A DNA stretch of 64,000 bases from a virus. Lineage: Duplodnaviria; Caudoviricetes. Position 1 is the stretch's first letter; every line of letters begins with the position of its first letter. This document shows positions 5,265-27,711 of this stretch, one piece after another. The DNA lies in the IMG/VR virus record IMGVR_UViG_3300020046_003652, positions 11,448-75,447 of that record. One strand, given 5' to 3'. The position numbers and the translations under genes are program-made. The notes under the pieces were generated by a model that saw only the letters and a list, made by a program, of their open reading frames with translations, searched no databases and was not told the origin of the DNA.

Positions 5265-5396
5265 ATGACTATTGAACAAGCAAAATTATTACTAAAAAAA
5301 GCATCTTCAGGCGCGATATTAACTGATTCTGAAAAAAAAGATATATTAAAAGCAATACATATAGTGTCAAACTCACCGTTGAAGCCTAAAGAGTAA
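5265..5396 (+). CDS. 43-aa hypothetical protein (not in ORF track), possible fibre chaperone
   Basis: MTIEQAKLLLKKASSGAILTDSEKKDILKAIHIVSNSPLKPKE with AAGGA RBS. Confidence 0.5.
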   Translation: MTIEQAKLLLKKASSGAILTDSEKKDILKAIHIVSNSPLKPKE

Positions 5397-5485
5397 TTAG
5401 AAATTTATAAACTATTAAAATATTGAAATATATGCAATATTAACAACTGTATTTGTGAGTAAATTTAACTCGTTAGGGGAATATT

Positions 5486-5905
5486 GTGGACGAAAACGAA
5501 TTTAGACGTAAAAGAAAATTAACACCTCAAGAACAAATCAATAGTATGATGGGTACAGCTACAGCAGATAGTATGACCGATTTACTAGGATCTAACACTC
5601 CTGGACGAGAATTAGGCGGATCTTCTGATTCTACTGCGTATTCTGATGACAGAGAACGAAGAATTAAAGCACTAGAGAGAATGGGAGTTAATCCTAATTC
5701 TACAGAACAATATAATAAAGATATACAGAATAAAAAAATAGATCAAGAAGATTTATCTGCAGAGATAGATCCAGAAATTGAACAATATATGCAACGTGAA
5801 AGAAGTGCTTATACTCCACCTGCACGTCCTGAATTACCAAAAGAGACTCCAGAACAAAGACAATCAAGAATAATGCAATTACTTAAATCGAGAGGTTTAA
5901 AATAA
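5486..5905 (+). CDS. Hypothetical protein
   Basis: 139 aa, GTG start, AGGGGA RBS, downstream of TAACAACT at 5441. Confidence 0.6.
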   Translation: MDENEFRRKRKLTPQEQINSMMGTATADSMTDLLGSNTPGRELGGSSDSTAYSDDRERRIKALERMGVNPNSTEQYNKDIQNKKIDQEDLSAEIDPEIEQYMQRERSAYTPPARPELPKETPEQRQSRIMQLLKSRGLK

Positions 5906-6027
5906 TGGGAGATTCTGCACCAAAGACTACAAATATGTTTAAAGGTTTAAAATCTATCTTAAAAGAGACATATGCTAAATGTCCTAAATGTAAAAAGTCT
6001 AAAAAGGATTGTTCTTGTGGCAAGTAA
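5905..6027 (+). CDS. 40-aa Cys-rich peptide (not in ORF track)
   Basis: TAATG-coupled. MGDSAPKTTNMFKGLKSILKETYAKCPKCKKSKKDCSCGK, with four Cys (CxxC...CxC). Confidence 0.55.
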   Translation: MGDSAPKTTNMFKGLKSILKETYAKCPKCKKSKKDCSCGK

Positions 6028-6505
6028 AGAAGACATCGAAAGATTTCTGCATTACATTAGTCAGTTAGAAACTTCCGGTGGAAAGAATTTAAATCACGAA
6101 ACAGTTAAAGAAGGTCCACTTAAAGGTGAAACTGCTGAAGGTAAACATGGACATATGCCTTCTACTCAACGTGATATGATCAATAGATATCCTGCAAATC
6201 TTGATGAAAATAGTACACCAGAAGAAATAGATAGACAATTAGCAGAACATGTTTTAAATAGAGCAAAAGGTGATGAAACTTTAGCTTCTGGATTATGGCG
6301 TCATGGTCATAACCGTAGAATGGTTCATCAAGCTCCGTTAAAAGATCCTAGAGATATTAGAAATAGTCTATATGCTCAAGAATATGATAAAGTAAGAAGT
6401 GAAATTCCTTATACGTTAGATCCTAATCCGTATCAAGAGAAATACGCTGAAGAACAAGAAGAAAAAAAGAAATTTCCTCAATTAGATAAACTGTTTAAAA
6501 AGTAA
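6017..6505 (+). CDS. Lysozyme-fold / lytic transglycosylase-like protein
   Basis: Likely GTG start at 6017 with AAGGA RBS. ISQLETSGG (catalytic Glu-like), AEGKHGHMPST (resembles AxGxxQxMPxT) and LASGLWRHGH (resembles AxxAYNxG). Confidence 0.5.
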   Translation: MASKEDIERFLHYISQLETSGGKNLNHETVKEGPLKGETAEGKHGHMPSTQRDMINRYPANLDENSTPEEIDRQLAEHVLNRAKGDETLASGLWRHGHNRRMVHQAPLKDPRDIRNSLYAQEYDKVRSEIPYTLDPNPYQEKYAEEQEEKKKFPQLDKLFKK

Positions 6506-7165
6506 TTATAATTTCTTGTATTTCTTGCAAAAAGATTTAATCGAATCTATAGCATCCCATGTATCATCTTCATGATCTATATCTATCCAAAAATATTTAT
6601 AAATAGAGTTACCATAATAGAATTTATTATAATACATTAATACATGATAATTATATTCTCTTCCATATGTATATTCAGGTATAGCTGAGTATATTTTCAT
6701 AAAGGCTTAATCCCCATAATCATTCTGATATGTGTAGGGTTAGGATAAGTCGCTACAATATCATTAAATTTACAGTATCTACCGATACGAAACTCATTAA
6801 AAAATAATAAAGGACAAATGTTACTACCTTGAATATGGATACTACGTATAATCATAATGATTCGGTATCCTTTGCTTTTTTATACATATCATTATCATAA
6901 AACATTTCATCTATATGTTTAAAGTATCCTAATTTACCTATTCGATACCCTCCTATAAATAGTAACGAAAAACTAATAGGTGAATCGTTATATATAATAG
7001 ACTTTATTATCATAAAACTATAGCCTTTTCTGGAATAGTACAATGTTTTTCAATAGAATAAAATTTAGATCTAACATCGAACATATAATAATCGAATTTA
7101 TATATGTCATATACCAATATGTCATATACCAAGAGGGTATTTATTAAATATAATCGATTATACAT
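6506..7165 (-). other. Array of 4 mini-ORFs: 7010-7165, 6852-7013, 6697-6855, 6506-6700
   Basis: Hand-translated at 51, 53, 52 and 64 aa. All three junctions are TTA-TGA overlapping the next ATG. Confidence 0.7.
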
Positions 7166-8814: not shown

Positions 8815-10071
8815 ATGGCTGCTGCAAATACATTCGGTACTCCAAACAATTCAGTTGGTACCCTTAATGGTCTTTTTAAAGAGACTTATGCTGATAAATT
8901 ACAAGAATTAATCCCTGATGGTGTGAAATTGATGAATAAAATCAAGTTCGCAGCTAAGGACAAAATGCCCGGTAACCTATATCACCAACCAGTTATTCTT
9001 GGTATGGAACATGGTGTTACTTTTGCTTCTTCAGACGAAGATGCTTTTAACTTGAATGCTCCAGTTGCTGGTCAAATCCGTGACGCTCAAGTTCGTGGAA
9101 ATCCAGTTGTTATGCGTTCATTACTTGGTTACGTTGCTCTTTCAAGAGCTGCTCAAGGTGGACAAAAAGCGTTCATGGATGCTACTAAGTTTTTAGTTGC
9201 TAACATGTTACGATCTATGTCTAAAAAACTTGAGATCGAAATGCTTTATGGACAAATGGGTTATGGTGCAATTTCTGCAGTTTCTTCTGCAACTTTGACT
9301 ATCAAAACTTCTGAGTGGGCGCCTGGTATCTGGGCTGGTGCTGAAGGCATGCCTATCGAAATCAGAGACGTAACTGGTGCTACTTCTCGTGGCGAAGCTA
9401 TCGTTCAATCTGTTGATATGGACGCTAGAACAATCACTTTAGTTAGTGCTGTTTCTGGTATCGTTACTACTGCTTCTTCTGAAGACATTATCTGGCACAA
9501 AGGTGCTTATGGTAATGAATTTCCTGGTATCCATAAGATCTTGTCTATCCAATCTGGTACTCTTTTCAACATCAACGTTGGAACATACAACCTATTCCGT
9601 GGTAACGTATATTCTGCTGGTTCTGCTGCACTAAGCTTCACTAAGCTTCAATCTGCTGCTGCTAGAGCTGTTGAAAAAGGTCTTGATGGAGATCTTTACT
9701 CTCTTGTTAATCCACGTGCTTGGGCTAACATGATGACTGAACAAGCTGCTTTACGTATGTATGACAGTTCATACAGCGAAGCTAAATCAGCTAATGGTTC
9801 AAAAACTATCCAGTTCCATTCTCAAAATGGTACAATCGAGATCGAACCTTCAATCTACGTTAAAGAAGGTTATGCATATTGCTTGTCTGTTGATGACTGG
9901 TTCCGCGTTGGTTCTACTGACATGACTTTCAAAGCTCCTGGTCAAGGTGAAGATTTCTTCCGACATGTTGAAAATGCTGCTGCCCTCGAATTGCGTCTGT
10001 ATTCTGACCAAGCACTTTTTTGCCATGCTCCAGGTAAATCTGTTCTTATAAACAACATCGTTAACTCTTAA
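8815..10071 (+). CDS. Major capsid protein (HK97 fold expected)
   Basis: 418 aa after the scaffold, strongly biased codons (GCT/GGT/CGT/TTC), followed by a strong terminator. Confidence 0.85.
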   Translation: MAAANTFGTPNNSVGTLNGLFKETYADKLQELIPDGVKLMNKIKFAAKDKMPGNLYHQPVILGMEHGVTFASSDEDAFNLNAPVAGQIRDAQVRGNPVVMRSLLGYVALSRAAQGGQKAFMDATKFLVANMLRSMSKKLEIEMLYGQMGYGAISAVSSATLTIKTSEWAPGIWAGAEGMPIEIRDVTGATSRGEAIVQSVDMDARTITLVSAVSGIVTTASSEDIIWHKGAYGNEFPGIHKILSIQSGTLFNINVGTYNLFRGNVYSAGSAALSFTKLQSAAARAVEKGLDGDLYSLVNPRAWANMMTEQAALRMYDSSYSEAKSANGSKTIQFHSQNGTIEIEPSIYVKEGYAYCLSVDDWFRVGSTDMTFKAPGQGEDFFRHVENAAALELRLYSDQALFCHAPGKSVLINNIVNS

Positions 10072-19364: not shown

Positions 19365-22300
19365 ATGGCAAGCTTAGTTACATTAAAAGCTACAGGATTA
19401 CAAACTCAGCCCAATCAATTGGACTTAGCCGAGGGTTCGTTATCTGTTGCTTCTAATATTATTATCGATAGAGATAACGTAATTGAAAAACGTAGAGGAT
19501 TTAAACTTTACGGTAATTCATTTGGATCATCATCTAATATATCAAAACAATTAATGGAATATAGAGACAGATTAATTCGTCATTATTTAGATAAATTACA
19601 ATACGATAATGGATCTGGAACATTTACTGATTTTCCTGGAACATTTACTGAACCAGAAACTGGAATTAGAATTAAATCAGTTGCAGCTAATAATAATTTT
19701 TATTTTACCACTTCGCAAGGGGTTCAAAAAATAGCAGCAGCTACTAGCGATTTAAGTACATCTGTAATTTCTAATGCTGGTGGAGTAAAAGCAATAGATA
19801 TATCTTCTGCATTAAAATATACATATGGATCTTTAACTGGCTTTTTACCAGTAGATTCAGCTGTTGCATATCGTGCTGTATGGGGAATAAAAGATGTAAA
19901 TGGTAATTTAATTTTAGGTACTCCTTCTCCTAGATCTGAAATATACAATCCGATTACCCCAGTAATGAATCAAGATTTTATGAGATTATTACAAGGATTA
20001 GATAATGCTGCTGCAGTTCCTGCAGGTCAATCATTAACTGATGTTGATTATACTACAACATTAGGATTACCTATATATTCAGATGCTACTTTATTACGAA
20101 CCAACATACTTTCTTTGTCTGCTAAATTAGATACAGATATTTATCCTGCATTACCAGCAATAACTACTCCTGATCCTTTTTATACAGCAGGACCTCCTCA
20201 ATATGTACGTATCAAGTTTGTAGCAGCTCACGGCCTAATAGTTGGAGATTCGGTTAAAATAACAGGAATGATACCAGATGCGTATAATGGTGTATTTTCC
20301 GTAATTAATATTCCAGCAGCAGATACTATAGATATTTCAGTAATTGCTAACCCTGGAACATATACTTCTGGTGGAGTAGTAACTAAAGTAAAATATCAAA
20401 CAATATTAGAACCAGATGAGTTAAGCATTCCTCAAACATCAGCACAATTAAGAAGCATCCAAGATTATATGGATGAGATTATTTTAAAATTACAAACAAG
20501 TCCAACTTCAGAAATTACAAATACTAATTTAAATTTATATATAGATGAACTAAATGTAACCAAAACCTCTACTGTTAATTTAACTATAAATATTCCTACA
20601 GAGGTAGTGAGTGCAGGATTAAATCAATACTTTTTGCAGTTATATCGATCTAATATAACAGAAGCAATAGGAACCACGGTATTAAGTGAATTGGTTCCAG
20701 ATGATGAAATGAAATTAGTATATGAAGCTTTTCCAACAGCATTAGAATTAAGTGCTAATGTTATGTTATTTGAAGATATAACACTAGATACTTTCGCTGG
20801 AGCTAATTTATATACAAACGAAGCGACAGGAGAAGGAGCATTACAAGCAAATGATGCGCCTCCTTACGCTAAAGATTTAGCTAGATTTAAAAATGTTACG
20901 TTTTATGCTAATACTAAAAATAAACAAAAAAAGCTATTATCTTTATTAGGTGTATCTAATATGATAACAGATTACAATAACAGTATAATTCCAAAATTAA
21001 CAATAACAAATGGAACAAATACTGTTACTTATTCTTTTGTTACAGGATTACAAGAAATAACAGATATAACTTGTGTAGCTGATGTTGCTGATAGTTTAAA
21101 TGGTACATATTTTGATATATATTCAGCAGAAGATGTAACTAAATATCGTTTTTATTATAAAACATCAGGGGGGACTGATACTCCTCCAGCTATAACTACA
21201 GAAACTCTAGTTAAGATCTACATAAACACTAACGATGCCGACACTAGTGTTGCGGGTAAAACTAAAGACATATTAAACGTATATGGTGTAGATTTTATAG
21301 CCGAAGATAACACGTTACCTACTATACAAGTAACAACTACTGGATTTGGGTATACGACAGATGCGTCTGCTGGAACTACAGGATTTACAGTTACAGTTAC
21401 ACAACAAGGTAGAGGTCAATCTATATCCACTAATCCTAAACAGGTTCTTCTTTCAACTAACATATCTCCAGCAGTAGCTGTCGATGAAACAGCAAGAAGT
21501 TTAGTTAATATAATAAATAAAGATACCTCCAGTCCAGTATATGCTTATTACTTATCTTCAGCTAGTGGTGTTCCTGGTAAATTCTTTTTAGAAGCAAAAT
21601 CACTAAATTCTGATGTATTATATATGTTAACCAATAATTCAGTTACTGGAGCATCTTTTAATCCAGATTTGAGTCCTACTTCTAGTATTACTGCTATTTC
21701 TTCTGCAAATCCTACTGTAATAAATACTAGTGCTCCTCATGGTCTAGTCAATACTTCAACTGTTGTTATTTCATCATCTAATTCTCCAACTAACATAGAT
21801 GGCAAATATTCAGTTACTGTAGTCTCTTCTACTCAATTTAGTATCCCTGTCGATTTATCTGCTATGGTAGTAGGTTCATATTCTGCAGTTTATTCTAAAA
21901 CATCAGATGTTGAAGCAAGTGAGAATGAAACAAAACCAAATAGAGTTTATTATTCTAAATTAGACCAACCAGAAGCCGTTCCGTTGTTTAATTATTTCGA
22001 TGTAGGTGATTCAGATAAAGCTATCCTTCGTATTTATCCTCTTAGAGATAGTTTATTTGTATTTAAAGAAGAAGGACTATATCGTATATCCGGTGAAGTA
22101 TCTCCTTTTACCTTAGCTTTATTCGATTCTTCTTGTAAAATAACAGCTCCCGATTCAATAGGAGTAGTAGCTAATTTGATATTTGCTTGGACTAAAAAAG
22201 GAATAGAGACAATATCAGAGTCTGGTGCATCCTTAGTGTCTAGACCAATAGATAACGATATATTGAAACTAGGAAGTACCAACTATACTAATTTTAAAAC

Positions 22301-23657
22301 AACGACATTCGGACTAGGTTATGAATCAGATAAATCGTATTTAGTATGGACAGTAACAAAAACAAATGATTCTGTTGCTAAAATATGTTATAGATATAGT
22401 ACCGTTACGGGAGCATGGACTACGTACGATAAAACTAATACTTGCGGAATAGTTAAAGTTCTAGAAGATAAATTATTTCTAGGAGCAGGTGATATTAATT
22501 ACATAGAAGAAGAAAGAAAGACATTCACAAGAACTGATTATGCTGATCGTGAATTATCATTTCAAATAAACAGTAATGCTTACTCTGGTAATAAAATTAA
22601 ATTTACATCTATAACTGATTTTGAAATAGGTGATGTACTAGAACAACAACAGACTCTTACTCCTTATATATATAATATGTTATTAAAGAAATTAGATTTT
22701 GATCCTGGTTCTAATTTTACATCGTTTTATACAACATATCAAGCTTTGGGTGGAAATAACATGCGAGATAAGTTGGTAGAGTTAGCTCAAAAATTAGATA
22801 CATTAGGATTAACTTTTACTGATTACGAAAGTGTAATTGATTCTAAAACCGGAAGTATAGGTTCTCAAACAATAGGAGGATCTGCAGTTGAAATAACATC
22901 AACTGCTCATGGATTAAAAACCGGAAGATATATTAACATATTTGGAAATACATCAACTCCTAGTATTAATGGAGATTGGTTAGTTACGGTTATAGATGCT
23001 AACACTTTTAGTATTCCTACTGTGATAAATACTTCGGTTTCTGATGGATCATTTCTCACTTTAGATGATAATTTTGAAGATGTTAAAGGATGTTATAATC
23101 TTATAATAAATAAATTAAACGCAGATCAAACTATAGGGTTTACTAATTATTTAGAAATAGATACGACAACTAATATCGAAGCAATTGTTACTGATATAAA
23201 TAAAATAACAAAAACAATAACTTTAAATATAACACTTGACTATGTGGTTGGTCCTGTTTTATTATATAAGTCATATACTAGTACTGCTGTTTACTCACCA
23301 ACTACAATGGGTGATCCGTTAGGATATAAACACGTTAGAGAAGCTACTGTAATGTTTGAAAATAAAGCATTTACTTCTGCAATACTTAGTTTTGGAAGTG
23401 ATTTATTACCGATGTATATACCTATTCCTTTCAATGGTGATGGTAATGGTATATATGGTCATAATAACTTTGGAGAAGGCTTTTATGGAGGATCATCACA
23501 TAGTGCTCCATTCAGAACGTTAATACCCAGAGATAGTCAACGGTGTAGAGCATTGAATGTTAAATTAGAACATGATGTTGCTAGAGAAAATATAATAATT
23601 TATGGTATATCAATTACAGGTGAAGTTGGCTATAGCACAAGAGCTTACAGAGGTTAA
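19365..23657 (+). CDS. Tail nozzle (tail tubular protein B-like) with inserted beta domains
   Basis: 1430 aa. Propeller-like blades (RVYYSKLDQPEAVP, RDSLFVFKEEGLYRISG) and three HGL...V.I.G repeats. Confidence 0.65.
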   Translation: MASLVTLKATGLQTQPNQLDLAEGSLSVASNIIIDRDNVIEKRRGFKLYGNSFGSSSNISKQLMEYRDRLIRHYLDKLQYDNGSGTFTDFPGTFTEPETGIRIKSVAANNNFYFTTSQGVQKIAAATSDLSTSVISNAGGVKAIDISSALKYTYGSLTGFLPVDSAVAYRAVWGIKDVNGNLILGTPSPRSEIYNPITPVMNQDFMRLLQGLDNAAAVPAGQSLTDVDYTTTLGLPIYSDATLLRTNILSLSAKLDTDIYPALPAITTPDPFYTAGPPQYVRIKFVAAHGLIVGDSVKITGMIPDAYNGVFSVINIPAADTIDISVIANPGTYTSGGVVTKVKYQTILEPDELSIPQTSAQLRSIQDYMDEIILKLQTSPTSEITNTNLNLYIDELNVTKTSTVNLTINIPTEVVSAGLNQYFLQLYRSNITEAIGTTVLSELVPDDEMKLVYEAFPTALELSANVMLFEDITLDTFAGANLYTNEATGEGALQANDAPPYAKDLARFKNVTFYANTKNKQKKLLSLLGVSNMITDYNNSIIPKLTITNGTNTVTYSFVTGLQEITDITCVADVADSLNGTYFDIYSAEDVTKYRFYYKTSGGTDTPPAITTETLVKIYINTNDADTSVAGKTKDILNVYGVDFIAEDNTLPTIQVTTTGFGYTTDASAGTTGFTVTVTQQGRGQSISTNPKQVLLSTNISPAVAVDETARSLVNIINKDTSSPVYAYYLSSASGVPGKFFLEAKSLNSDVLYMLTNNSVTGASFNPDLSPTSSITAISSANPTVINTSAPHGLVNTSTVVISSSNSPTNIDGKYSVTVVSSTQFSIPVDLSAMVVGSYSAVYSKTSDVEASENETKPNRVYYSKLDQPEAVPLFNYFDVGDSDKAILRIYPLRDSLFVFKEEGLYRISGEVSPFTLALFDSSCKITAPDSIGVVANLIFAWTKKGIETISESGASLVSRPIDNDILKLGSTNYTNFKTTTFGLGYESDKSYLVWTVTKTNDSVAKICYRYSTVTGAWTTYDKTNTCGIVKVLEDKLFLGAGDINYIEEERKTFTRTDYADRELSFQINSNAYSGNKIKFTSITDFEIGDVLEQQQTLTPYIYNMLLKKLDFDPGSNFTSFYTTYQALGGNNMRDKLVELAQKLDTLGLTFTDYESVIDSKTGSIGSQTIGGSAVEITSTAHGLKTGRYINIFGNTSTPSINGDWLVTVIDANTFSIPTVINTSVSDGSFLTLDDNFEDVKGCYNLIINKLNADQTIGFTNYLEIDTTTNIEAIVTDINKITKTITLNITLDYVVGPVLLYKSYTSTAVYSPTTMGDPLGYKHVREATVMFENKAFTSAILSFGSDLLPMYIPIPFNGDGNGIYGHNNFGEGFYGGSSHSAPFRTLIPRDSQRCRALNVKLEHDVARENIIIYGISITGEVGYSTRAYRG

Positions 23658-23658
23658 C

Positions 23659-24069
23659 ATGAGATTACCTAATTATCGTAGAATATTTTCTAATGATTTT
23701 GAAGAACAATTTAAAGATTTGTTAGATAAATTGTCAGGTACATTAAATTCTGGTATAGAAGTTATTTACGAAGCATTGAATAATAAATTAACGTTTAGAG
23801 ATAACTTTGCAGCAACAGTTGCCGAGTTTAACGTTATTGTAGATAGTAACGGTATTCCTAACGGGACAACTAGTTTCAAGCTTTCTAACTCCTTGAAAAT
23901 AGAAGGATTATTCGTAATAGCAGCAACCGACACAAGTAATTCTACCTTATATCCTCCAGGAGCTGTTTTTGTAAGTGGGAATCCTAGTAATACTTCGTAT
24001 ATAATAAGCAATATAAGAGGTTTAACTCCAGGTAGAGAATATAGAATTAAAGTAGTAGTTTTAAATTAG
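23659..24069 (+). CDS. Putative tail protein
   Basis: ATG at 23659 after GAGG; 136 aa, beta-rich. Confidence 0.55.
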   Translation: MRLPNYRRIFSNDFEEQFKDLLDKLSGTLNSGIEVIYEALNNKLTFRDNFAATVAEFNVIVDSNGIPNGTTSFKLSNSLKIEGLFVIAATDTSNSTLYPPGAVFVSGNPSNTSYIISNIRGLTPGREYRIKVVVLN

Positions 24070-24131
24070 ATACGATATGTTCGTTTTAACAACTCTATAT
24101 GTTGTATCTCTACGTAATTTAAAGGGAAAAA

Positions 24132-26345
24132 ATGGCTATAAATTTTAATCAACAAAATCCAAATAACCCACAAGGTCAGCTACCTAATCAACAAACACAA
24201 CAATCGTTTAAACCTAAATCTACTGGATTCACTAATATCCAACGAGTGTTAGGTGCGAATAAAAACAATAAATTAGGTCAAGCTGTAACTCAAGGAGTAC
24301 AAGGAACTGTTCAAGGGGTTAAAAGTAATTTACAACAAGAAGTTCAAAAAAATAAACAAATAGCAGATAATTACAATAGTCAAATAGGTCAACAACAACA
24401 TCAAGCAAATCAGGTCATAAGTCAAGTTAATCAACCTGATCCAAATGCTGATCTATCTCAAATTGCAAATGCTAATCAAGAATTATTTCAAAACGTAAGA
24501 TCTTCTAATTATACCGGACCACAAGAATTAGGTAATATACAAAAGCTACAACAACAAGCTGGAGACGTTGAACAGTTAGGTAAACAAATAGCAGGTAGCA
24601 ATAGAGAAGGTCTTTTACAACGGTATGTTGGTGGAGATAGATACACTGGAGGTCAACGTAGACTTGATAATTTACTTTTAGGTCAAACTGGACAAAAAGA
24701 GTTAAATCAAGCTCGTCGTGACACTATGGGAATTGATGATAGTATAAGTCAAGCCAATAGTGAAGCGGCTAATCGATTTATGTCTAATTTAAAATATAAA
24801 CAAGATGTTGCTGGTAGCATTAATCAACAATTAGGTCAATCTCAAGAAAAGATAAATAGTGATATTCAAAACGTATTAAATAATCTACAATCAGATAATC
24901 AATTTCTTCAAACTAAAGATAAAGCAGTTCGTGATTATTTATCACAAAGACAAAAAACAGGTGCAGGTGAAGTTCAGACTCAAACTATGATAGATCCAGT
25001 AGATCAGGCTATGGTTGCTTTAGAACGGGCTGGAGTAAGCGCTGGTCAATATAAAGATCAATTAATGAAAGCTTTAAACGCTGGATTAGATCCGCGTGAA
25101 TTAGTTAATGCTAGCTTAAAAACAAATTTAGGTCAAAATATAACAAAAGAAGGAGCAATGACTGGACAACAAGCATCTCAGTTAAACGCCCTATCTAGAC
25201 TTAGTGGAGATAATTCAACTACGTATAATAAAAATATAGAAGCAACTAAAGGTGGATTTAATTTTGATATTAATAATATTCAAAAAAATATAGCAGAACA
25301 AGAAGCATATAATCAAGCAAATGCAGAAGAAAAAGCTAGAATGTTAGCAGATAGAGATGCTAGAACTAGAAAAGAAAGAATGGCTGCAGAAAATACAAGA
25401 AAAGCTCTATATTTATTAAATCCAGCATTAGGCGCATCAGCTGATATGTTATCTGGCGATTTCCAAAAAAGCGATGCATACAAAGCACTACAAAAATATG
25501 GTGGAATGGATAAAGTATTCGAATTAACAGGTAACACTTCAAATGCCCTAAATCGAGCTATGAGCGGAGAACAATCATTAGATTCGGCTTTAAGCGACAC
25601 TACTAGTAATTTATTAAAAGATATTGCAAATAGACCTGGACAATATATTAATTTATCTCCAGGGATGACAGCAGAAGACGCATATAATCAAATTAAATCA
25701 ATAGGATCTAATCCAGGAGATGCATATAATCGCGGTGATATCAAAAAAGGAATAGAAAGCGTTGGAAATACGGTTTCTGATGCAGTAAGTAACGTTACTT
25801 GTCATCTAGCTGGAACTATGATACGATTAATAGATAACAAATTTAAATCTATAGAAAATATTAAATTAGGAGATATGTTATATCTTGGTGGAAAAGTTAC
25901 AGCACTTGGTTCAAGTGTAGCTAACGAATTTTATGATTATAAAAATGAAAAAGTTACAGGAGAACATGCGGTATTTGAAGATGGAAAATTTATTAGAGTT
26001 AAAAATAGTAAAGACTCTAAATTAAATATTGTCAATAATGAAATTATAGTGTATATTATAGTAACTGAAAAACATTTAATGGTTACTAACAATATAATAT
26101 GGGCAGATTATGCTGAAACTCCATTTGCTATGTCTTTAACCGATGATCAACGATTGACTTGGTTAAACGATCAAGTAGATAGAAATAAAGAATTAGAAAT
26201 TATTCAAAAGGATTTGAACAATGAAATTGCGATTAATGAAGAGAAAAACAGAATATCGGTATTTAAACCAATTATGGAAAAAATACAAGTATTTACCTCC
26301 TCATTTAAGTATTTTACCAAAAACAAGTTATTTTGTTTTAGATAA
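24132..26345 (+). CDS. Gln-rich internal virion/ejection protein with C-terminal Hint domain
   Basis: Q/N-rich coiled coil, then T|CHLAGTMI (block A, Cys557 at 25800), TGEH (block B) and VYIIVTEKH...WADYAE. Confidence 0.75.
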   Translation: MAINFNQQNPNNPQGQLPNQQTQQSFKPKSTGFTNIQRVLGANKNNKLGQAVTQGVQGTVQGVKSNLQQEVQKNKQIADNYNSQIGQQQHQANQVISQVNQPDPNADLSQIANANQELFQNVRSSNYTGPQELGNIQKLQQQAGDVEQLGKQIAGSNREGLLQRYVGGDRYTGGQRRLDNLLLGQTGQKELNQARRDTMGIDDSISQANSEAANRFMSNLKYKQDVAGSINQQLGQSQEKINSDIQNVLNNLQSDNQFLQTKDKAVRDYLSQRQKTGAGEVQTQTMIDPVDQAMVALERAGVSAGQYKDQLMKALNAGLDPRELVNASLKTNLGQNITKEGAMTGQQASQLNALSRLSGDNSTTYNKNIEATKGGFNFDINNIQKNIAEQEAYNQANAEEKARMLADRDARTRKERMAAENTRKALYLLNPALGASADMLSGDFQKSDAYKALQKYGGMDKVFELTGNTSNALNRAMSGEQSLDSALSDTTSNLLKDIANRPGQYINLSPGMTAEDAYNQIKSIGSNPGDAYNRGDIKKGIESVGNTVSDAVSNVTCHLAGTMIRLIDNKFKSIENIKLGDMLYLGGKVTALGSSVANEFYDYKNEKVTGEHAVFEDGKFIRVKNSKDSKLNIVNNEIIVYIIVTEKHLMVTNNIIWADYAETPFAMSLTDDQRLTWLNDQVDRNKELEIIQKDLNNEIAINEEKNRISVFKPIMEKIQVFTSSFKYFTKNKLFCFR

Positions 26346-26640
26346 AAACAATAAAATAATAGCTTCTGGGTTATTATTTTTAACTAATGGTAAACTAGCA
26401 ATGATTGGATGGTTGATAGTTGATAAAGATATTAAAAATAAGAAAGTAATAATGAATTTTTTAATTAAGAATCTTATAAATAAAGCAAAAGAAAAAGGTA
26501 TAGTATGTATCTATACTTATAGTAAACATTCTAGTATGCTTTATATGTATAAGAAAATAGGATTTAAAAAATATGGTTCAGGAATAAATACATTAGGATT
26601 TAGTTGTAATAATATTAACTTAGCTTTTATGAAGGAATAA
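26221..26640 (+). CDS. GNAT-family acetyltransferase
   Basis: IIASGLLFL...IGWLIVDK...LIKNLINKAKEKG...YKKIGF GNAT pattern; overlaps the upstream gene by 125 nt. Confidence 0.65.
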   Translation: MKLRLMKRKTEYRYLNQLWKKYKYLPPHLSILPKTSYFVLDKNNKIIASGLLFLTNGKLAMIGWLIVDKDIKNKKVIMNFLIKNLINKAKEKGIVCIYTYSKHSSMLYMYKKIGFKKYGSGINTLGFSCNNINLAFMKE

Positions 26641-26643
26641 CAA

Positions 26644-27711
26644 ATGGCTCCATTAATGATCGCAGCAATAGCAGCTCCAGTAATATCCGGCGCAATGGGT
26701 CACTTCCTTGGCGCAGGAGATAGGGCAGCAGCCGCTGCGAAATCTGCAGAAGCAGTACAAGGGTTGATAGATGTAGGATTACCTCCTGATCTATCTAAAC
26801 GATTAGTACTTGAAGAATTCCAAAAAGCAGGAATGCTAGATCCAGAAACAGAAAAAACTATTAACATGAATGTATCTAAAGTTGCTGGAATCCAAGAAGA
26901 TTCTAAACTTAAAGATGCACAAATGTCTTCTTTAGAATTACTAAGTCAAAGAGCTAATACCGGATTAAACCCAGAAGATATGGCTGCTCTTAATAAAATA
27001 AGAGATCAATTAGCTAGAGATCAAAATGCAAAACAACAACAAATAGTTCAAAATTATCAAATGCGTGGTATGGGTGGTTCTGGTGCAGAATTAGCAGCTG
27101 CGTTATCTGCAGAACAATCAGGTGCAAATCAAGCTTCACAACAAGGTGATCAATTAGCAGCAATGGCATCTCAAAACGCATTACAAGCGGCTATGCAATC
27201 TGGTCAATTAGGTGGATCTATCAGATCTCAAGATTTCGATGTTAGTAAGACTAAAGCTGGTGCAGAAGATGAAATGAATAGATTTAATATTCAAAATCAA
27301 TTAGGACAACAACAAAGAAACGTTGCAGCTAAAAATCAAGCACAACAGTTTAATTTACAAAATGAACAAAATTTAATGAATGCTAATACACAACAAGCAA
27401 ACACCGAAACTCAAAGACAAAATCAAGCTAAACGTGATTTTTATACAGATAAAATGAATAGAGCGTCTGCATTAGGTAATGCATTAAATGGTCAAGCTAA
27501 TCAATTAAACAATCAAGCATCAGCTACTGGTCAAATGTGGTCAGGAGTAGGTTCTGGAATAGCTACAGGTATTGCTGGATATGGTAAGTATCAAAATGAT
27601 CAAGCTTTAAATGAATCAAATATTTCAAAAAATGCAGCAGAAGCTAATTATTATAATAGACTAAATACTCCTCCTGCAAATAATCCTCTTTTGATTAAAA
27701 AACAAGGATAA
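26644..27711 (+). CDS. Ejection (DNA pilot-like) protein
   Basis: Hydrophobic A/G N-terminus, Q/A/N coiled coil and C-terminal GVGSGIATGIAG glycine zipper. Confidence 0.7.
   Translation: MAPLMIAAIAAPVISGAMGHFLGAGDRAAAAAKSAEAVQGLIDVGLPPDLSKRLVLEEFQKAGMLDPETEKTINMNVSKVAGIQEDSKLKDAQMSSLELLSQRANTGLNPEDMAALNKIRDQLARDQNAKQQQIVQNYQMRGMGGSGAELAAALSAEQSGANQASQQGDQLAAMASQNALQAAMQSGQLGGSIRSQDFDVSKTKAGAEDEMNRFNIQNQLGQQQRNVAAKNQAQQFNLQNEQNLMNANTQQANTETQRQNQAKRDFYTDKMNRASALGNALNGQANQLNNQASATGQMWSGVGSGIATGIAGYGKYQNDQALNESNISKNAAEANYYNRLNTPPANNPLLIKKQG

What the first reader, a model, noticed from the sequence alone, without database searches (positions are those of the whole stretch)
24132..26345. Ejection protein carrying a Hedgehog/intein (Hint) autoprocessing domain
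Seen: after 556 aa of Q-rich coiled coil and an amphipathic segment (KKGIESVGNTVSDAVSNVT) come CHLAGTMI, TGEH and VYIIVTEKH...WADYAE, with no His-Asn splice terminus. Established: Hint domains lacking the terminal Asn typically perform N-terminal cleavage through a thioester, and in Hedgehog this transfers the N-fragment to a sterol. Inference: the virion protein self-cleaves at Thr556/Cys557 and may become covalently joined to a lipid, small molecule or protein during assembly or DNA ejection. The gene has its own TAACAACT motif (24087).
Basis: partly seen in the sequence, partly recalled or inferred. Interest (0 to 1): 0.72.

Follow-up and report, generated by a model that had tools for sequence, protein, structure and literature searches.

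The report
Self-cutting Hint cap on phage protein
A long helical protein in the particle-building gene block of an uncultured 75-kb phage ends in a genuine intein/Hedgehog-type (Hint) domain that most likely cuts itself off; it belongs to a large, unannotated family seen almost only in phage DNA, and whether the cut also attaches the protein to something is untested.

Summary
ORF 24132-26345 (737 aa) has an all-helical, Q/N-rich, cysteine-free N-part (1-556), followed by Cys557, T609-G-E-H612 and W-A-D659.

Pfam and PHROGs do not see a Hint domain in this protein directly. Three other lines of evidence do:
- The AlphaFold model matches only Hint structures: BIL2 Z 13.7, C. thermocellum BIL 12.9, inteins about 12, Hedgehog 11.3.
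- Cys557 lies on intein residue 1, and Asp659 on the intein's terminal Asn.
- Close relatives hit Pfam Hint families, down to E 3e-14.

The domain defines a family of at least 2,480 protein clusters. It is always C-terminal. Cys557, His612, Asp659 and Asn679 are invariant, and a conserved helical tail follows the core.

An ortholog 55% identical up to the junction carries a Peptidase_S74 self-cleaving domain in place of the Hint. This argues that the selected function is a removable C-terminal domain.

Best reading (0.7): N-S acyl shift at Thr556/Cys557, releasing a 60.7-kDa fragment. Transfer of the thioester to a lipid or protein is possible but has no direct support (about 0.15-0.2).

"Ejection protein" rests on gene position alone. 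The linked GNAT gene is enriched next to Hint genes but is not specific to them. This scan has reported Hint-capped phage proteins before, on other DNA.

The parts
24087..24094 (+). TAACAACT motif, a candidate late-promoter element 45 nt upstream of the start codon
   Evidence: There are 13 copies in the window against 5.5 expected. Nine lie between genes on the + strand and share an extended T-rich context. Its function was not tested.
24132..26345 (+). Whole ORF: 737 aa plus stop (P0001)
   Evidence: A 99%-identical copy lies on another contig of 80,004 bp.
24132..25799 (+). N-terminal part, residues 1-556 (the N-extein; predicted mature product, 60.7 kDa). All-helical, Q/N-rich, without cysteine. 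The conserved family core is about residues 30-400.
   Evidence: About 75 metagenomic homologs share residues 1 to about 400. AF2 pLDDT is 74.9, with long helices at 47-100, 201-275 and 380-434. No PDB, BFVD or Atlas match was found.
25740..25799 (+). Amphipathic Gly/Ser/Val-rich segment just before the cleavage site (residues 537-556), ending ...SDAVSNVT
   Evidence: It is homologous to the pre-site segment of S74-bearing orthologs, which read ...SVSDAVSKIT-GGGIKIS.
25800..25802 (+). Codon of Cys557, the predicted nucleophile (Hint residue 1). The scissile bond is Thr556-Cys557.
   Evidence: Cys in 150/150 family members. It aligns with residue 1 of PI-SceI, RecA, DnaB and gp41-1 inteins and with Cys258 of Hedgehog.
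25800..26108 (+). Hint core, residues 557-659 (103 aa)
   Evidence: VIA-align Z 13.7 (6y75 BIL2), 12.9 (2lwy) and 11.3 (1at0), over model residues 16-118. Foldseek E 5e-5, with all top 50 hits from the Hint superfamily.
25956..25967 (+). Block-B motif T609-G-E-H612 (TxxH)
   Evidence: His612 in 150/151. Position 609 is Ser or Thr in 109/151. Gly610 in 131/151.
26106..26108 (+). Codon of Asp659, invariant, at the structural position of the intein C-terminal Asn. It is preceded by Ala658 where inteins have His, and followed by Tyr660, which is not a nucleophile.
   Evidence: Asp in 151/151. Model residue 118 aligns with Asn454 of PI-SceI, Asn440 of RecA and the last residue of the gp41-1 and Npu inteins.
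26109..26222 (+). Conserved helical tail of the module, residues 660-697. It includes Glu662, R674-L, L678-Asn679 (invariant) and R684-N685.
   Evidence: Conservation: Glu662 146/151, Asn679 149/149. Predicted helices with pLDDT 70-90. It has no counterpart in the aligned PDB Hint structures, whose alignments end at model residue about 121.
26223..26345 (+). Non-conserved 40-residue extension (698-737) plus stop. It overlaps the next gene in another frame.
   Evidence: Family alignments end near residue 695. The overlap with ORF 26221-26640 is 125 nt.
26221..26640 (+). Overlapping downstream gene: a 139-aa GNAT-fold acyltransferase-like protein. It is a frequent but not obligate neighbour of Hint-bearing genes.
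   Evidence: Pfam Acetyltransf_1 E 2.8e-5, above the cut-off; phrog_17252. Homologs overlap the 3' end of the Hint gene in L001, L002, L005, L006, L008, L010, L011, L012, L015 and L021. The gene also follows Hint-less homologs in L045 and L053.

Best explanation
The gene encodes a precursor made of two parts.
- Residues 1-556 form an elongated, all-helical protein of the phage's late (particle) gene block.
- Residues 557 to about 697 form a bacterial-intein-like / Hedgehog-like Hint autoprocessing module: a 103-residue Hint core plus a conserved helical tail.

Proposed mechanism:
1. After folding, Cys557 attacks the Thr556 carbonyl (N-S acyl shift), helped by the block-B Thr609/His612 pair.
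2. The resulting thioester is resolved, most simply by water. The invariant Asp659 sits where inteins have their terminal Asn, next to the scissile bond, and may assist.
3. A 60.7-kDa N-fragment ending at Thr556 is released, together with a 16-21-kDa Hint fragment.

Splicing by the standard route is excluded: there is no His-Asn and no +1 Cys/Ser/Thr. The module therefore acts as a removable C-terminal cap on a virion-module protein, the same role that the Peptidase_S74 domain plays in orthologs.

Shown: the fold, the residues, the family, the domain swap and the gene context. Inferred: that cleavage happens, its site, that the N-fragment is the mature virion component, and why a cap is needed.
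For: - Fold: the AF2 model (pLDDT 74, pTM 0.70) matches only Hint structures. Foldseek top hits are BIL2 6tmm (E 5e-5), C. thermocellum BIL 2lwy and Vint 8r2c, followed by inteins and Hedgehog 1at0. VIA Z is 13.7-10 for 50 Hint entries, with Cys557 on residue 1 and Asp659 on the last intein residue.
- Sequence: a profile of 42 relatives hits the PI-SceI N-terminus in register at E 1e-6. Relatives hit Pfam Hom_end_hint in 22 of 42 (best E 3e-14), Vint in 10, Hint in 6 and Hint_2 in 5.
- Purifying selection on catalytic positions across 151 family members: Cys557 150/150, Thr562 144/150, His612 150/151, Asp659 151/151, Asn679 149/149. The window's copy keeps all of them.
- Architecture: the domain is C-terminal in the best 150 of the 2,480 hits, the ones whose positions are listed.
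- Natural swap: P0003 (Hint) and P0045 (Pfam PF13884 Peptidase_S74) are 55% identical over 622 aa. Homology stops at ...GGG(F/I)KIS, within a few residues of both cleavage sites. L050 is another S74 form.
- Published chemistry: type B BILs lack block G and perform cleavage uncoupled from splicing (PMC4031507, PMC7765530).
- Context: conserved synteny of adaptor-like gene, 1,100-1,570-aa protein, about 135-aa protein, then this gene, in L001, L003 and L006. The window also has portal, capsid and tail-protein genes upstream.
Against: - No experiment exists; cleavage is inferred from residues and fold.
- Pfam and PHROGs give no Hint hit on this protein itself, even at E<=10.
- The -1 residue is Thr here, whereas the family has Phe in 98/147. 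From my own knowledge of inteins, beta-branched -1 residues can slow N-cleavage.
- Most N-family homologs (about 70 of 76; 13 distinct IMG/VR loci) have no removable domain at all. Cleavage is therefore not required for the N-part's basic function, and a domain that merely removes itself needs some further rationale.
- The invariant Asp659, Glu662 and Asn679 and the conserved tail are not explained by plain hydrolysis.
- The model rests on only four sequences.
Confidence: 0.7

Rival explanations
1. Hedgehog- or BUBL-like transfer. The Cys557 thioester is not hydrolysed. A specific nucleophile attacks it instead: a lipid hydroxyl or amine, a peptidoglycan or protein amine, or a small molecule. 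The N-fragment then ends in a covalent adduct at Thr556. The conserved helical tail (660-697) would act as an adduct-recognition region, and Asp659 as the general base. The overlapping GNAT-fold gene might assist the acyl transfer.
For: - The top structural match is the Tetrahymena BUBL BIL2 domain. Hedgehog Hog is also a strong match (Z 11.3).
- Asp659 (151/151), Glu662 (146/151) and Asn679 (149/149) are polar residues conserved beyond what first-step chemistry needs. They sit at or after the active-site end of the fold.
- The tail travels with the Hint core across unrelated N-parts.
- The module is an optional add-on, so it should bring something beyond self-removal.
- A GNAT or GNAT-like gene directly follows, usually overlapping, in about 13 of about 21 distinct Hint loci, against 3-4 of 13 Hint-less loci.
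Against: - No acceptor has been identified.
- The tail has no conserved Lys or Cys, and homology to the Hedgehog sterol-recognition region is not shown.
- Orthologs use S74, which only hydrolyses, at the same junction.
- GNAT genes also follow Hint-less orthologs (L040, L045, L053). Some Hint loci lack one (L003, L016, L013, L020, L023-25). The counts are not corrected for relatedness.
Confidence: 0.17
2. BIL-type excision with ligation. Asp659 cyclises, as the C-terminal Asn or Asp of some inteins does, and cuts after residue 659. The freed amino group of the tail (Tyr660...) then attacks the thioester. The 103-residue core is excised and the conserved helical tail becomes joined to Thr556.
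For: - Asp659 is invariant and lies exactly at the terminal-Asn position.
- Type A BILs splice this way without a +1 nucleophile (PMC4031507). The C. thermocellum BIL (2lwy) is among the best structural matches.
- From my own knowledge, inteins with a C-terminal Asp have been reported to splice (Amitai et al. 2004); I did not check this here.
Against: - The penultimate His that normally assists cyclisation is Ala, Ser or Thr in the family.
- In BILs cleavage products dominate over ligation.
- The tail co-occurs with the Hint core rather than with the N-part, and Hint-less orthologs do not end in a recognisably similar tail. This was judged by eye only and is too short for statistics.
Confidence: 0.07
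3. Non-cleaving Hint. The domain is kept as a structural or binding module, for example a docking or oligomerisation knob. The precursor stays intact in the particle.
For: Degenerate, non-catalytic Hint copies exist elsewhere; another finding of this scan reports one (unchecked). The Thr at -1 is atypical for this family.
Against: The nucleophile and block-B His are invariant over 151 diverged sequences. This is hard to explain without catalysis. The swap with a self-cleaving S74 domain also argues against it.
Confidence: 0.05

Closest known systems
Bacterial intein-like (BIL) domains, especially type B, and the solved BILs (C. thermocellum BIL, PDB 2LWY; Tetrahymena BUBL BIL2, PDB 6Y75/6TMM)
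   Same: - Hint fold (Z 12.9-13.7).
- Cys1 and TxxH are present.
- No +1 nucleophile.
- Found in non-conserved, variable proteins rather than in essential enzymes.
- The expected outcome is cleavage rather than splicing.
   Different: - Ala-Asp stands where type A BILs have His-Asn.
- The domain is always at the extreme C-terminus, followed only by a conserved helical tail of about 35 residues with an invariant Asn.
- The family is found on phage contigs, with only one hit in 185,579 prokaryote genomes.
- Membership in the published type B sequence family was not tested, because no profile was at hand.
Hedgehog C-terminal autoprocessing (Hog) domain: Hint plus sterol-recognition region (PDB 1AT0)
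   Same: - A C-terminal Hint that releases an N-terminal functional fragment through a Cys thioester.
- No His-Asn.
- A helical extension follows the Hint core.
- Structural match Z 11.3 over residues 258-401.
   Different: - No evidence of sterol or any other adduct.
- The conserved acid is at the C-terminal end of the core (Asp659), not at the Hedgehog Asp46 position.
- Homology of the tail to the SRR is not shown.
- The setting is a phage, not a metazoan.
Class 1 mini-inteins (gp41-1, Mtu RecA, Ssp/Npu DnaB, PI-SceI splicing domain)
   Same: The fold, and blocks A and B in register. There is a block-F-like VY..E.H (His648 in 126/151).
   Different: - No terminal His-Asn, no +1 Cys/Ser/Thr and no homing endonuclease.
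- Not inserted in a conserved host protein.
- Standard splicing is therefore excluded.
Peptidase_S74 intramolecular chaperone autoprocessing domain (Pfam PF13884) of phage fibres and spikes
   Same: It occupies the same C-terminal position in orthologs of this very protein (P0005, P0010, P0045, L050) and is self-removing. It is a functional analogue.
   Different: The fold and chemistry are unrelated: a Ser/Lys dyad and hydrolysis only. The S74 domain has a known role as a trimerisation chaperone, which has not been shown for the Hint module.
Internal virion / ejection proteins of short-tailed phages (T7 gp14-16, P22 gp7/gp20/gp16) and the P22 gp26 tail needle
   Same: The gene lies after the adaptor-like gene and a very large tail-type gene. 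The protein has long helices, no enzyme domain and no cysteine.
   Different: No detectable sequence or fold similarity. From my own knowledge, none of these model proteins is known to carry a Hint domain, and my literature searches found no such report.

Membership tests
Hint superfamily (Hedgehog/intein fold) | Horseshoe-like all-beta Hint fold | tested here: met
   Foldseek: all top 50 hits are Hint proteins, best E 5e-5. VIA-align: Z 13.7-10.0, rmsd 2.0-2.6 A over about 100-113 residues.
Hint superfamily (Hedgehog/intein fold) | N-terminal nucleophile (Cys/Ser) at residue 1 of the domain (block A) | tested here: met
   Cys557. It is invariant (150/150) and aligns with residue 1 of inteins and with Cys258 of Hedgehog.
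Hint superfamily (Hedgehog/intein fold) | Block B Thr-x-x-His | tested here: met
   T609-G-E-H612. His is present in 150/151, and Ser or Thr in 109/151.
Hint superfamily (Hedgehog/intein fold) | Significant match to curated Hint profiles (Pfam Hint, Hint_2, Vint, Hom_end_hint, PT-HINT) | tested here: inconclusive
   This protein gives no hit, even at E<=10. Its relatives (E<=1e-35 to its profile) do hit: Hom_end_hint in 22 of 42 (best 3.2e-14), Vint in 10, Hint in 6, Hint_2 in 5. The criterion is met only transitively.
Inteins (class 1) | C-terminal His-Asn (block G) | tested here: not met
   Ala658-Asp659 occupies the structurally equivalent positions.
Inteins (class 1) | Cys/Ser/Thr at +1 of the C-extein | tested here: not met
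   Tyr660. In the family this position is mostly Phe, Tyr or Met (37, 31 and 31 of 151).
Inteins (class 1) | Insertion within a conserved site of a host protein whose halves are joined | tested here: not met
   The domain is terminal. Only a tail of about 35 residues follows, and it belongs to the module rather than to the N-family.
BIL type A | Conserved C-terminal His-Asn without a +1 nucleophile | tested here: not met
   There is no His-Asn. The absence of a +1 nucleophile is shared.
BIL type B | All intein splicing motifs except the C-terminal one, with cleavage uncoupled from splicing | tested here: inconclusive
   The motif pattern fits the published description. Sequence membership in Amitai's B-type family could not be tested, and cleavage itself is not testable with these tools.
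Hedgehog Hog domain | Hint core followed by a sterol/adduct-recognition region that directs transfer of the N-fragment to a nucleophile | tested here: inconclusive
   A conserved helical extension exists. Its homology to the SRR and any transfer activity are unknown.
Peptidase_S74 (intramolecular chaperone autoprocessing) | PF13884 domain with a Ser-Asp...Lys cleavage motif | tested here: not met
   It is absent from this protein. It is present at the same junction in the orthologs P0005, P0010 and P0045.
Podovirus internal virion / ejection proteins | Homology to a characterised ejection protein, or presence in virions and release on infection | tested here: inconclusive
   Only the position in the structural block supports it. 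No homology was found. Virion content cannot be tested with these tools.

The most novel reading that the evidence does not exclude
The Hint module is a phage device for making a C-terminal protein thioester during particle assembly or infection. The N-fragment would become covalently coupled at Thr556 to a lipid, to cell-wall material or to another protein. The conserved Asp659/Glu662/Asn679 tail would choose the acceptor, and the translationally coupled GNAT-fold neighbour might act as the transferase. That would be Hedgehog- or ubiquitin-like conjugation chemistry used by a virus particle.
Probability: 0.15. Interest if true: 0.9.

Novelty: new variant of a known kind. Interest (0 to 1): 0.6.

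Why it matters
Hint domains are known from inteins, Hedgehog proteins, polymorphic toxins and BILs. I found no paper describing them as C-terminal caps of phage particle proteins.

- This family is large: at least 2,480 clusters at 50% identity.
- It is seen almost only on phage or virus contigs.
- It is missed by Pfam on many members.
- It has its own signature: Asp at the terminal-Asn position, and a helical tail with an invariant Asn.

The family offers a clean, testable case of protease-independent maturation of a virion protein. There is also a natural Hint/S74 swap to compare with.

If the thioester is passed to an acceptor, it would be a new kind of covalent chemistry in virus assembly or entry, and possibly a compact new self-cleaving or ligating tag. 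If it only hydrolyses, the finding is still a useful annotation for thousands of 'hypothetical' phage proteins.

Tried and rejected
- Direct Pfam and PHROGs scans of the whole protein and of the C-terminal piece gave no Hint family. The weak HcgB and START_2 hits are below the cut-off and I rejected them.
- phmmer of the C-piece against PDB found nothing useful. The four-sequence profile gave only marginal intein hits (E 0.026-0.15). The 42-sequence profile made them significant; its huntingtin and nucleoporin hits are poly-Q artefacts.
- blastn and tblastn against 50,697 phage records found no match, either for this protein or for a consensus-like relative.
- Identity of the N-part: Foldseek against PDB gave nothing at E<=1e-3, only generic long-helix proteins. 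BFVD gave one uncharacterised phage protein and weak tape-measure look-alikes. ESM Atlas and the PDB profile gave nothing. The neighbouring 412-aa and 1,430-aa proteins also have no PDB relatives. 'Ejection protein', 'needle' or 'fibre' therefore cannot be decided.
- GNAT as a Hint-specific partner: I rejected the strict form. The GNAT-like gene also follows Hint-less orthologs (L045, L053), and a classical GNAT follows L040. Several Hint loci have none. Enrichment remains.
- The search for related loci with the GNAT alignment and with the large N-family alignment failed because no stretch was conserved enough. A smaller alignment worked.
- A true mobile intein: rejected. There is no His-Asn, no +1 nucleophile and no endonuclease, and the domain is terminal.
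- Sequencing error as the cause of the 40-residue extension: unlikely, because an identical tail lies on a second contig.
Full report
**1. What is in the sequence**

ORF 24132-26345 on the plus strand is open and encodes 737 residues. It starts 45 nt after a TAACAACT motif at 24087-24094. That octamer occurs 13 times in the window against 5.5 expected, and none of 100 shuffles reached 13. Seven copies lie 14-81 nt upstream of plus-strand ORFs and two more lie in longer gaps between genes. All nine share a T-rich extended context, as a late-promoter element would.

- the pre-site segment ends ...SDAVSNVT at Thr556;
- CHLAGT begins at Cys557;
- TGEH is residues 609-612;
- VYIIVTEKH...WADYAE is residues 640-662.

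The N-part (1-556) is 12.4% Gln and 11.0% Asn and contains no cysteine. The only other Cys is residue 735, in a non-conserved extension.

The window is part of a 75,447-bp IMG/VR virus record, estimated 88% complete.

**2. Is it a Hint domain?**

Direct profile searches say nothing. Pfam and PHROGs give no Hint family for the whole protein or for the C-terminal piece, even at E<=10. Three independent routes settle the question.

(a) Structure. An AlphaFold2 model of residues 542-737 has mean pLDDT 74 and pTM 0.70, with blocks of 81-92 in the core.
- In Foldseek it matches only Hint-superfamily structures. The top hits are Tetrahymena BUBL BIL2 (6tmm, E 5e-5), the C. thermocellum BIL (2lwy) and Vint (8r2c), followed by inteins and Hedgehog 1at0.
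- VIA-align gives Z 13.7 (6y75), 12.9 (2lwy), about 12 for mini-inteins and 11.3 for Hedgehog, at rmsd 2.0-2.3 A over 100-113 residues.
- The aligned ranges are informative. Model residue 16 (Cys557) falls on residue 1 of PI-SceI, RecA, DnaB and Prp8 inteins and on Cys258 of Hedgehog. Model residue 118 (Asp659) falls on the last residue of those inteins (Asn454 of PI-SceI, Asn440 of RecA).
- The Hint core is therefore residues 557-659, a minimal 103-residue version. Ala658-Asp659 stands where inteins have His-Asn.

(b) Family. A profile of this domain and three relatives (alignment A2) finds 2,480 proteins at E<=1e-3, 1,372 at E<=1e-10 and 248 at E<=1e-30 among 1.84 billion cluster representatives. 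The match reaches the C-terminal end of the protein in the best 150, the ones listed.

(c) Transitive profile evidence. Of 42 such relatives, 22 hit Pfam Hom_end_hint (best E 3.2e-14), 10 Vint, 6 Hint, 5 Hint_2 and 2 PT-HINT. Their joint profile hits the N-terminal splice junction of PI-SceI in exact register at E 1e-6.

The proposed refutation, 'no Hint fold on profile search or structure prediction', therefore fails. The fold is there.

**3. Anatomy of the module**

I aligned 151 family members to the profile. Conserved positions:

| Position | Conservation |
|---|---|
| Cys557 | 150/150 |
| Thr562 | 144/150 |
| Gly586 | 151/151 |
| Gly587 | 145/151 |
| position 609 | Ser or Thr in 109/151 |
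| His612 | 150/151 |
| Arg622 | 145/151 |
| His648 | 126/151 |
| Asp659 | 151/151 |
| Glu662 | 146/151 |
| Asn679 | 149/149 |

- The window's copy keeps all of these positions, so it is not a decayed copy.
- After the core comes a helical tail of about 35 residues, predicted with pLDDT 70-90. It carries the conserved pattern R-L-x-x-L-N-x-x-x-x-R-N-x-x-L.
- The tail travels with the core on unrelated N-parts. It has no counterpart in the aligned PDB Hint structures.
- Family members normally end near residue 695.
- Here the ORF runs 40 residues further, and those residues are the out-of-frame reading of the next gene's 5' end (gene start at 26221, overlap 125 nt). The same extension is present on a second contig, so it is not a read error. 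It is probably not functional.

**4. What the chemistry allows**

The first-step machinery is complete: the nucleophile and block B.
- The standard splicing route is excluded. There is no His-Asn, and the +1 residue is Tyr (mostly Phe, Tyr or Met in the family).
- This is the pattern described for bacterial intein-like domains. BILs lack the +1 nucleophile. Type B BILs keep the intein motifs except the C-terminal one and perform cleavage uncoupled from splicing (PMC4031507, PMC7765530).
- The expected reaction is an N-S acyl shift at Thr556-Cys557, followed by resolution of the thioester. It would give a 60.7-kDa N-fragment and a 16-kDa fragment (21 kDa with the extension).
- One caveat from my own knowledge of inteins: the -1 residue is Thr here, against Phe in 98 of 147 relatives. 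Beta-branched -1 residues can slow N-cleavage.

**5. Independent support from a natural domain swap**

- About 75 metagenomic proteins share the N-part (residues 1 to about 400). Most are about 500 residues long and have no extra C-terminal domain. Only three carry this Hint. Three others (P0005, P0010, P0045) carry Pfam PF13884 Peptidase_S74, the self-cleaving intramolecular chaperone of phage fibres.
- P0003 (Hint) and P0045 (S74) are 55% identical over 622 residues. Homology ends at ...GGG(F/I)KIS, which is the S74 cleavage-site serine in one protein and lies seven residues before the Hint cysteine in the other.
- Two unrelated self-removing domains at the same junction of orthologs argue that a removable C-terminal domain is what is selected. 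They also argue that plain cleavage is sufficient.
- Among the best 147 Hint-family representatives, 40 have this same N-family. The fusion is therefore common and not a one-off.

**6. What the N-part is**

- AlphaFold predicts an all-helical, elongated protein (pLDDT 74.9, above 90 for residues 50-250) with helices at 47-100, 201-275 and 380-434.
- No informative match was found in PDB, BFVD, the ESM Atlas or by PDB profile.
- The gene sits in the late block. Upstream are the portal (629-2683), the capsid gene (8815-10071) and tail-protein genes.
- The immediate neighbourhood is conserved in L001, L003 and L006: an adaptor-like gene of about 320-420 aa (weak PF24175 SU10_adaptor in L001), a 1,100-1,570-aa protein, a protein of about 135 aa, this gene, and then a conserved protein of about 350 aa with a glycine-zipper N-terminus.
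- This is where short-tailed phages keep needle and ejection proteins. That is the only basis for the label.
- The S74 orthologs would fit a trimeric fibrous or coiled-coil protein equally well.
- I rate 'virion component' as likely. 'Ejection protein' is about even with 'needle or fibre-like'.

**7. The GNAT neighbour**

The overlapping downstream gene (26221-26640) is a 139-aa GNAT-fold protein (Acetyltransf_1 E 2.8e-5, above the cut-off). An earlier report of this scan (e1-3541959) says such a gene almost always accompanies the Hint domain. I tested this.
- Homologs of it overlap the 3' end of the Hint gene in L001, L002, L005, L006, L008, L010, L011, L012, L015 and L021, including proteins with unrelated N-parts.
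- Classical small GNATs follow the Hint gene in L017, L018 and L019.
- The same GNAT-like gene also follows Hint-less orthologs in L045 and L053, and a classical GNAT follows L040. Nine of 13 distinct Hint-less loci go straight to the next conserved gene.
- Several Hint loci have no GNAT: L003, L016, L013, L020 and L023-25.

In numbers, a GNAT or GNAT-like gene follows in about 13 of about 21 distinct Hint loci and in 3-4 of 13 Hint-less loci. It is enriched but neither necessary nor specific, and the counts are not corrected for relatedness. GNAT domains are also common injected effectors in phage polyvalent proteins (PMC5512222), which is a simpler reason for their presence here.

**8. Distribution and literature**

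- There is no match in 50,697 deposited phage genomes.
- There is one match in 185,579 prokaryote genomes, on a 4-kb MAG contig.
- There are 32 loci in IMG/VR.
- On present evidence the family belongs to uncultured, apparently lytic phages. Some distant paired copies lie on giant-virus-labelled contigs.
- Full-text searches for Hint or BIL domains with phage, virion, ejection or polyvalent proteins found no description of this architecture.
- The scan itself has reported Hint-capped phage proteins before on other DNA: 49 notes in at least 46 genomes. A second first-reader note covers this same gene (e1-5846200).

**9. Verdict**

- Best explanation (0.7): a BIL/Hog-type C-terminal autoprocessing cap that removes itself at Thr556/Cys557.
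- Unexplained: why an optional, self-removing domain is maintained, and what the invariant Asp659, Glu662, Asn679 and the tail do.
- These open points keep two rivals alive: thioester transfer (about 0.17) and BIL-type ligation of the tail (about 0.07). A non-cleaving domain is unlikely (about 0.05).
- Novelty: a new variant of a known kind. It is a distinct Hint clade confined to phage DNA, with its own signature.
- Interest: 0.6.

Noticed in passing
window 26221-26640 (+); also L001:12318-12746, L002:2579-2998, L005:2943-3389, L006:10216-10644, L008:6395-6817: A small GNAT-fold gene overlaps the 3' end of the Hint-bearing gene by 8-125 nt in many loci, which suggests translational coupling. 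It is enriched next to Hint genes (about 13 of about 21 loci) but also follows Hint-less orthologs (L045, L053, L040).
   Followed up: yes
P0003 (L002:349-2598) versus P0045: Orthologs 55% identical over 622 aa carry either this Hint module or a Peptidase_S74 self-cleaving domain. Homology ends at ...GGG(F/I)KIS, right at the cleavage sites. This is a clean natural swap of two unrelated autoprocessing domains.
   Followed up: yes
window 26223-26345: The ORF reads 40 residues past the usual family end into the GNAT gene in another frame. The identical extension lies on a second contig. It contains the protein's only other cysteine (Cys735).
   Followed up: partly
P0171, P0174, P0198 (relatives): Tandem Hints. 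A canonical Hint ending in ...VHN is followed, after a Lys-Gly or poly-Gly linker, by the Cys of a second Hint of this family. The layout recalls the BIL-Ubl-BIL arrangement.
   Followed up: no
L026-L039 (e.g. L029:4033-5352 and 5371-6621): Distant members occur as two adjacent genes of about 440 aa and about 416 aa, each with a Hint match. Some are on contigs labelled as giant-virus MAGs (GVMAG).
   Followed up: no
Many relatives (P0099, P0146, P0164, P0131): In shorter family members the residues just before the Hint Cys form a glycine-zipper or hydrophobic helix (e.g. GGFIGSTIGSIF|C). Pfam gives Gly-zipper, Tim17 and C19orf12 hits for some of them. The released N-fragment would thus end in a membrane-type segment.
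   Followed up: partly
window 26644-27711 (+) and counterparts in L001, L002, L016, L042, L045, L046, L053: A conserved gene of about 330-380 aa follows. Its N-terminus is a glycine zipper (...AAPxxGGxxG...GDR) and it has a ...G(x)PPDL motif. It has no Pfam or PHROG match and is a core member of this module.
   Followed up: no
window 24087, 2690, 5441, 7169, 8318, 11080, 11676, 17154 (+): The TAACAACT sites share an extended context (T/A-T-TAACAACT-n-T-n-T). Most lie 14-81 nt upstream of late-gene starts, so the motif is a candidate phage-specific late promoter.
   Followed up: partly
contig carrying P0099 (no DNA held): A 381-aa Hint-capped protein lies four genes upstream of a 4,386-aa polyvalent protein (InPase, LPD1, SNF2-related and helicase domains). 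In that phage the Hint protein is therefore encoded near likely injected cargo.
   Followed up: no
window 23602-24069 and 19365-23657: As called from the first start codon, the 155-aa ORF overlaps the end of the 1,430-aa ORF by 56 nt. Counterparts elsewhere are 131-137 aa and abut the large gene, so the true start is probably further downstream.
   Followed up: no
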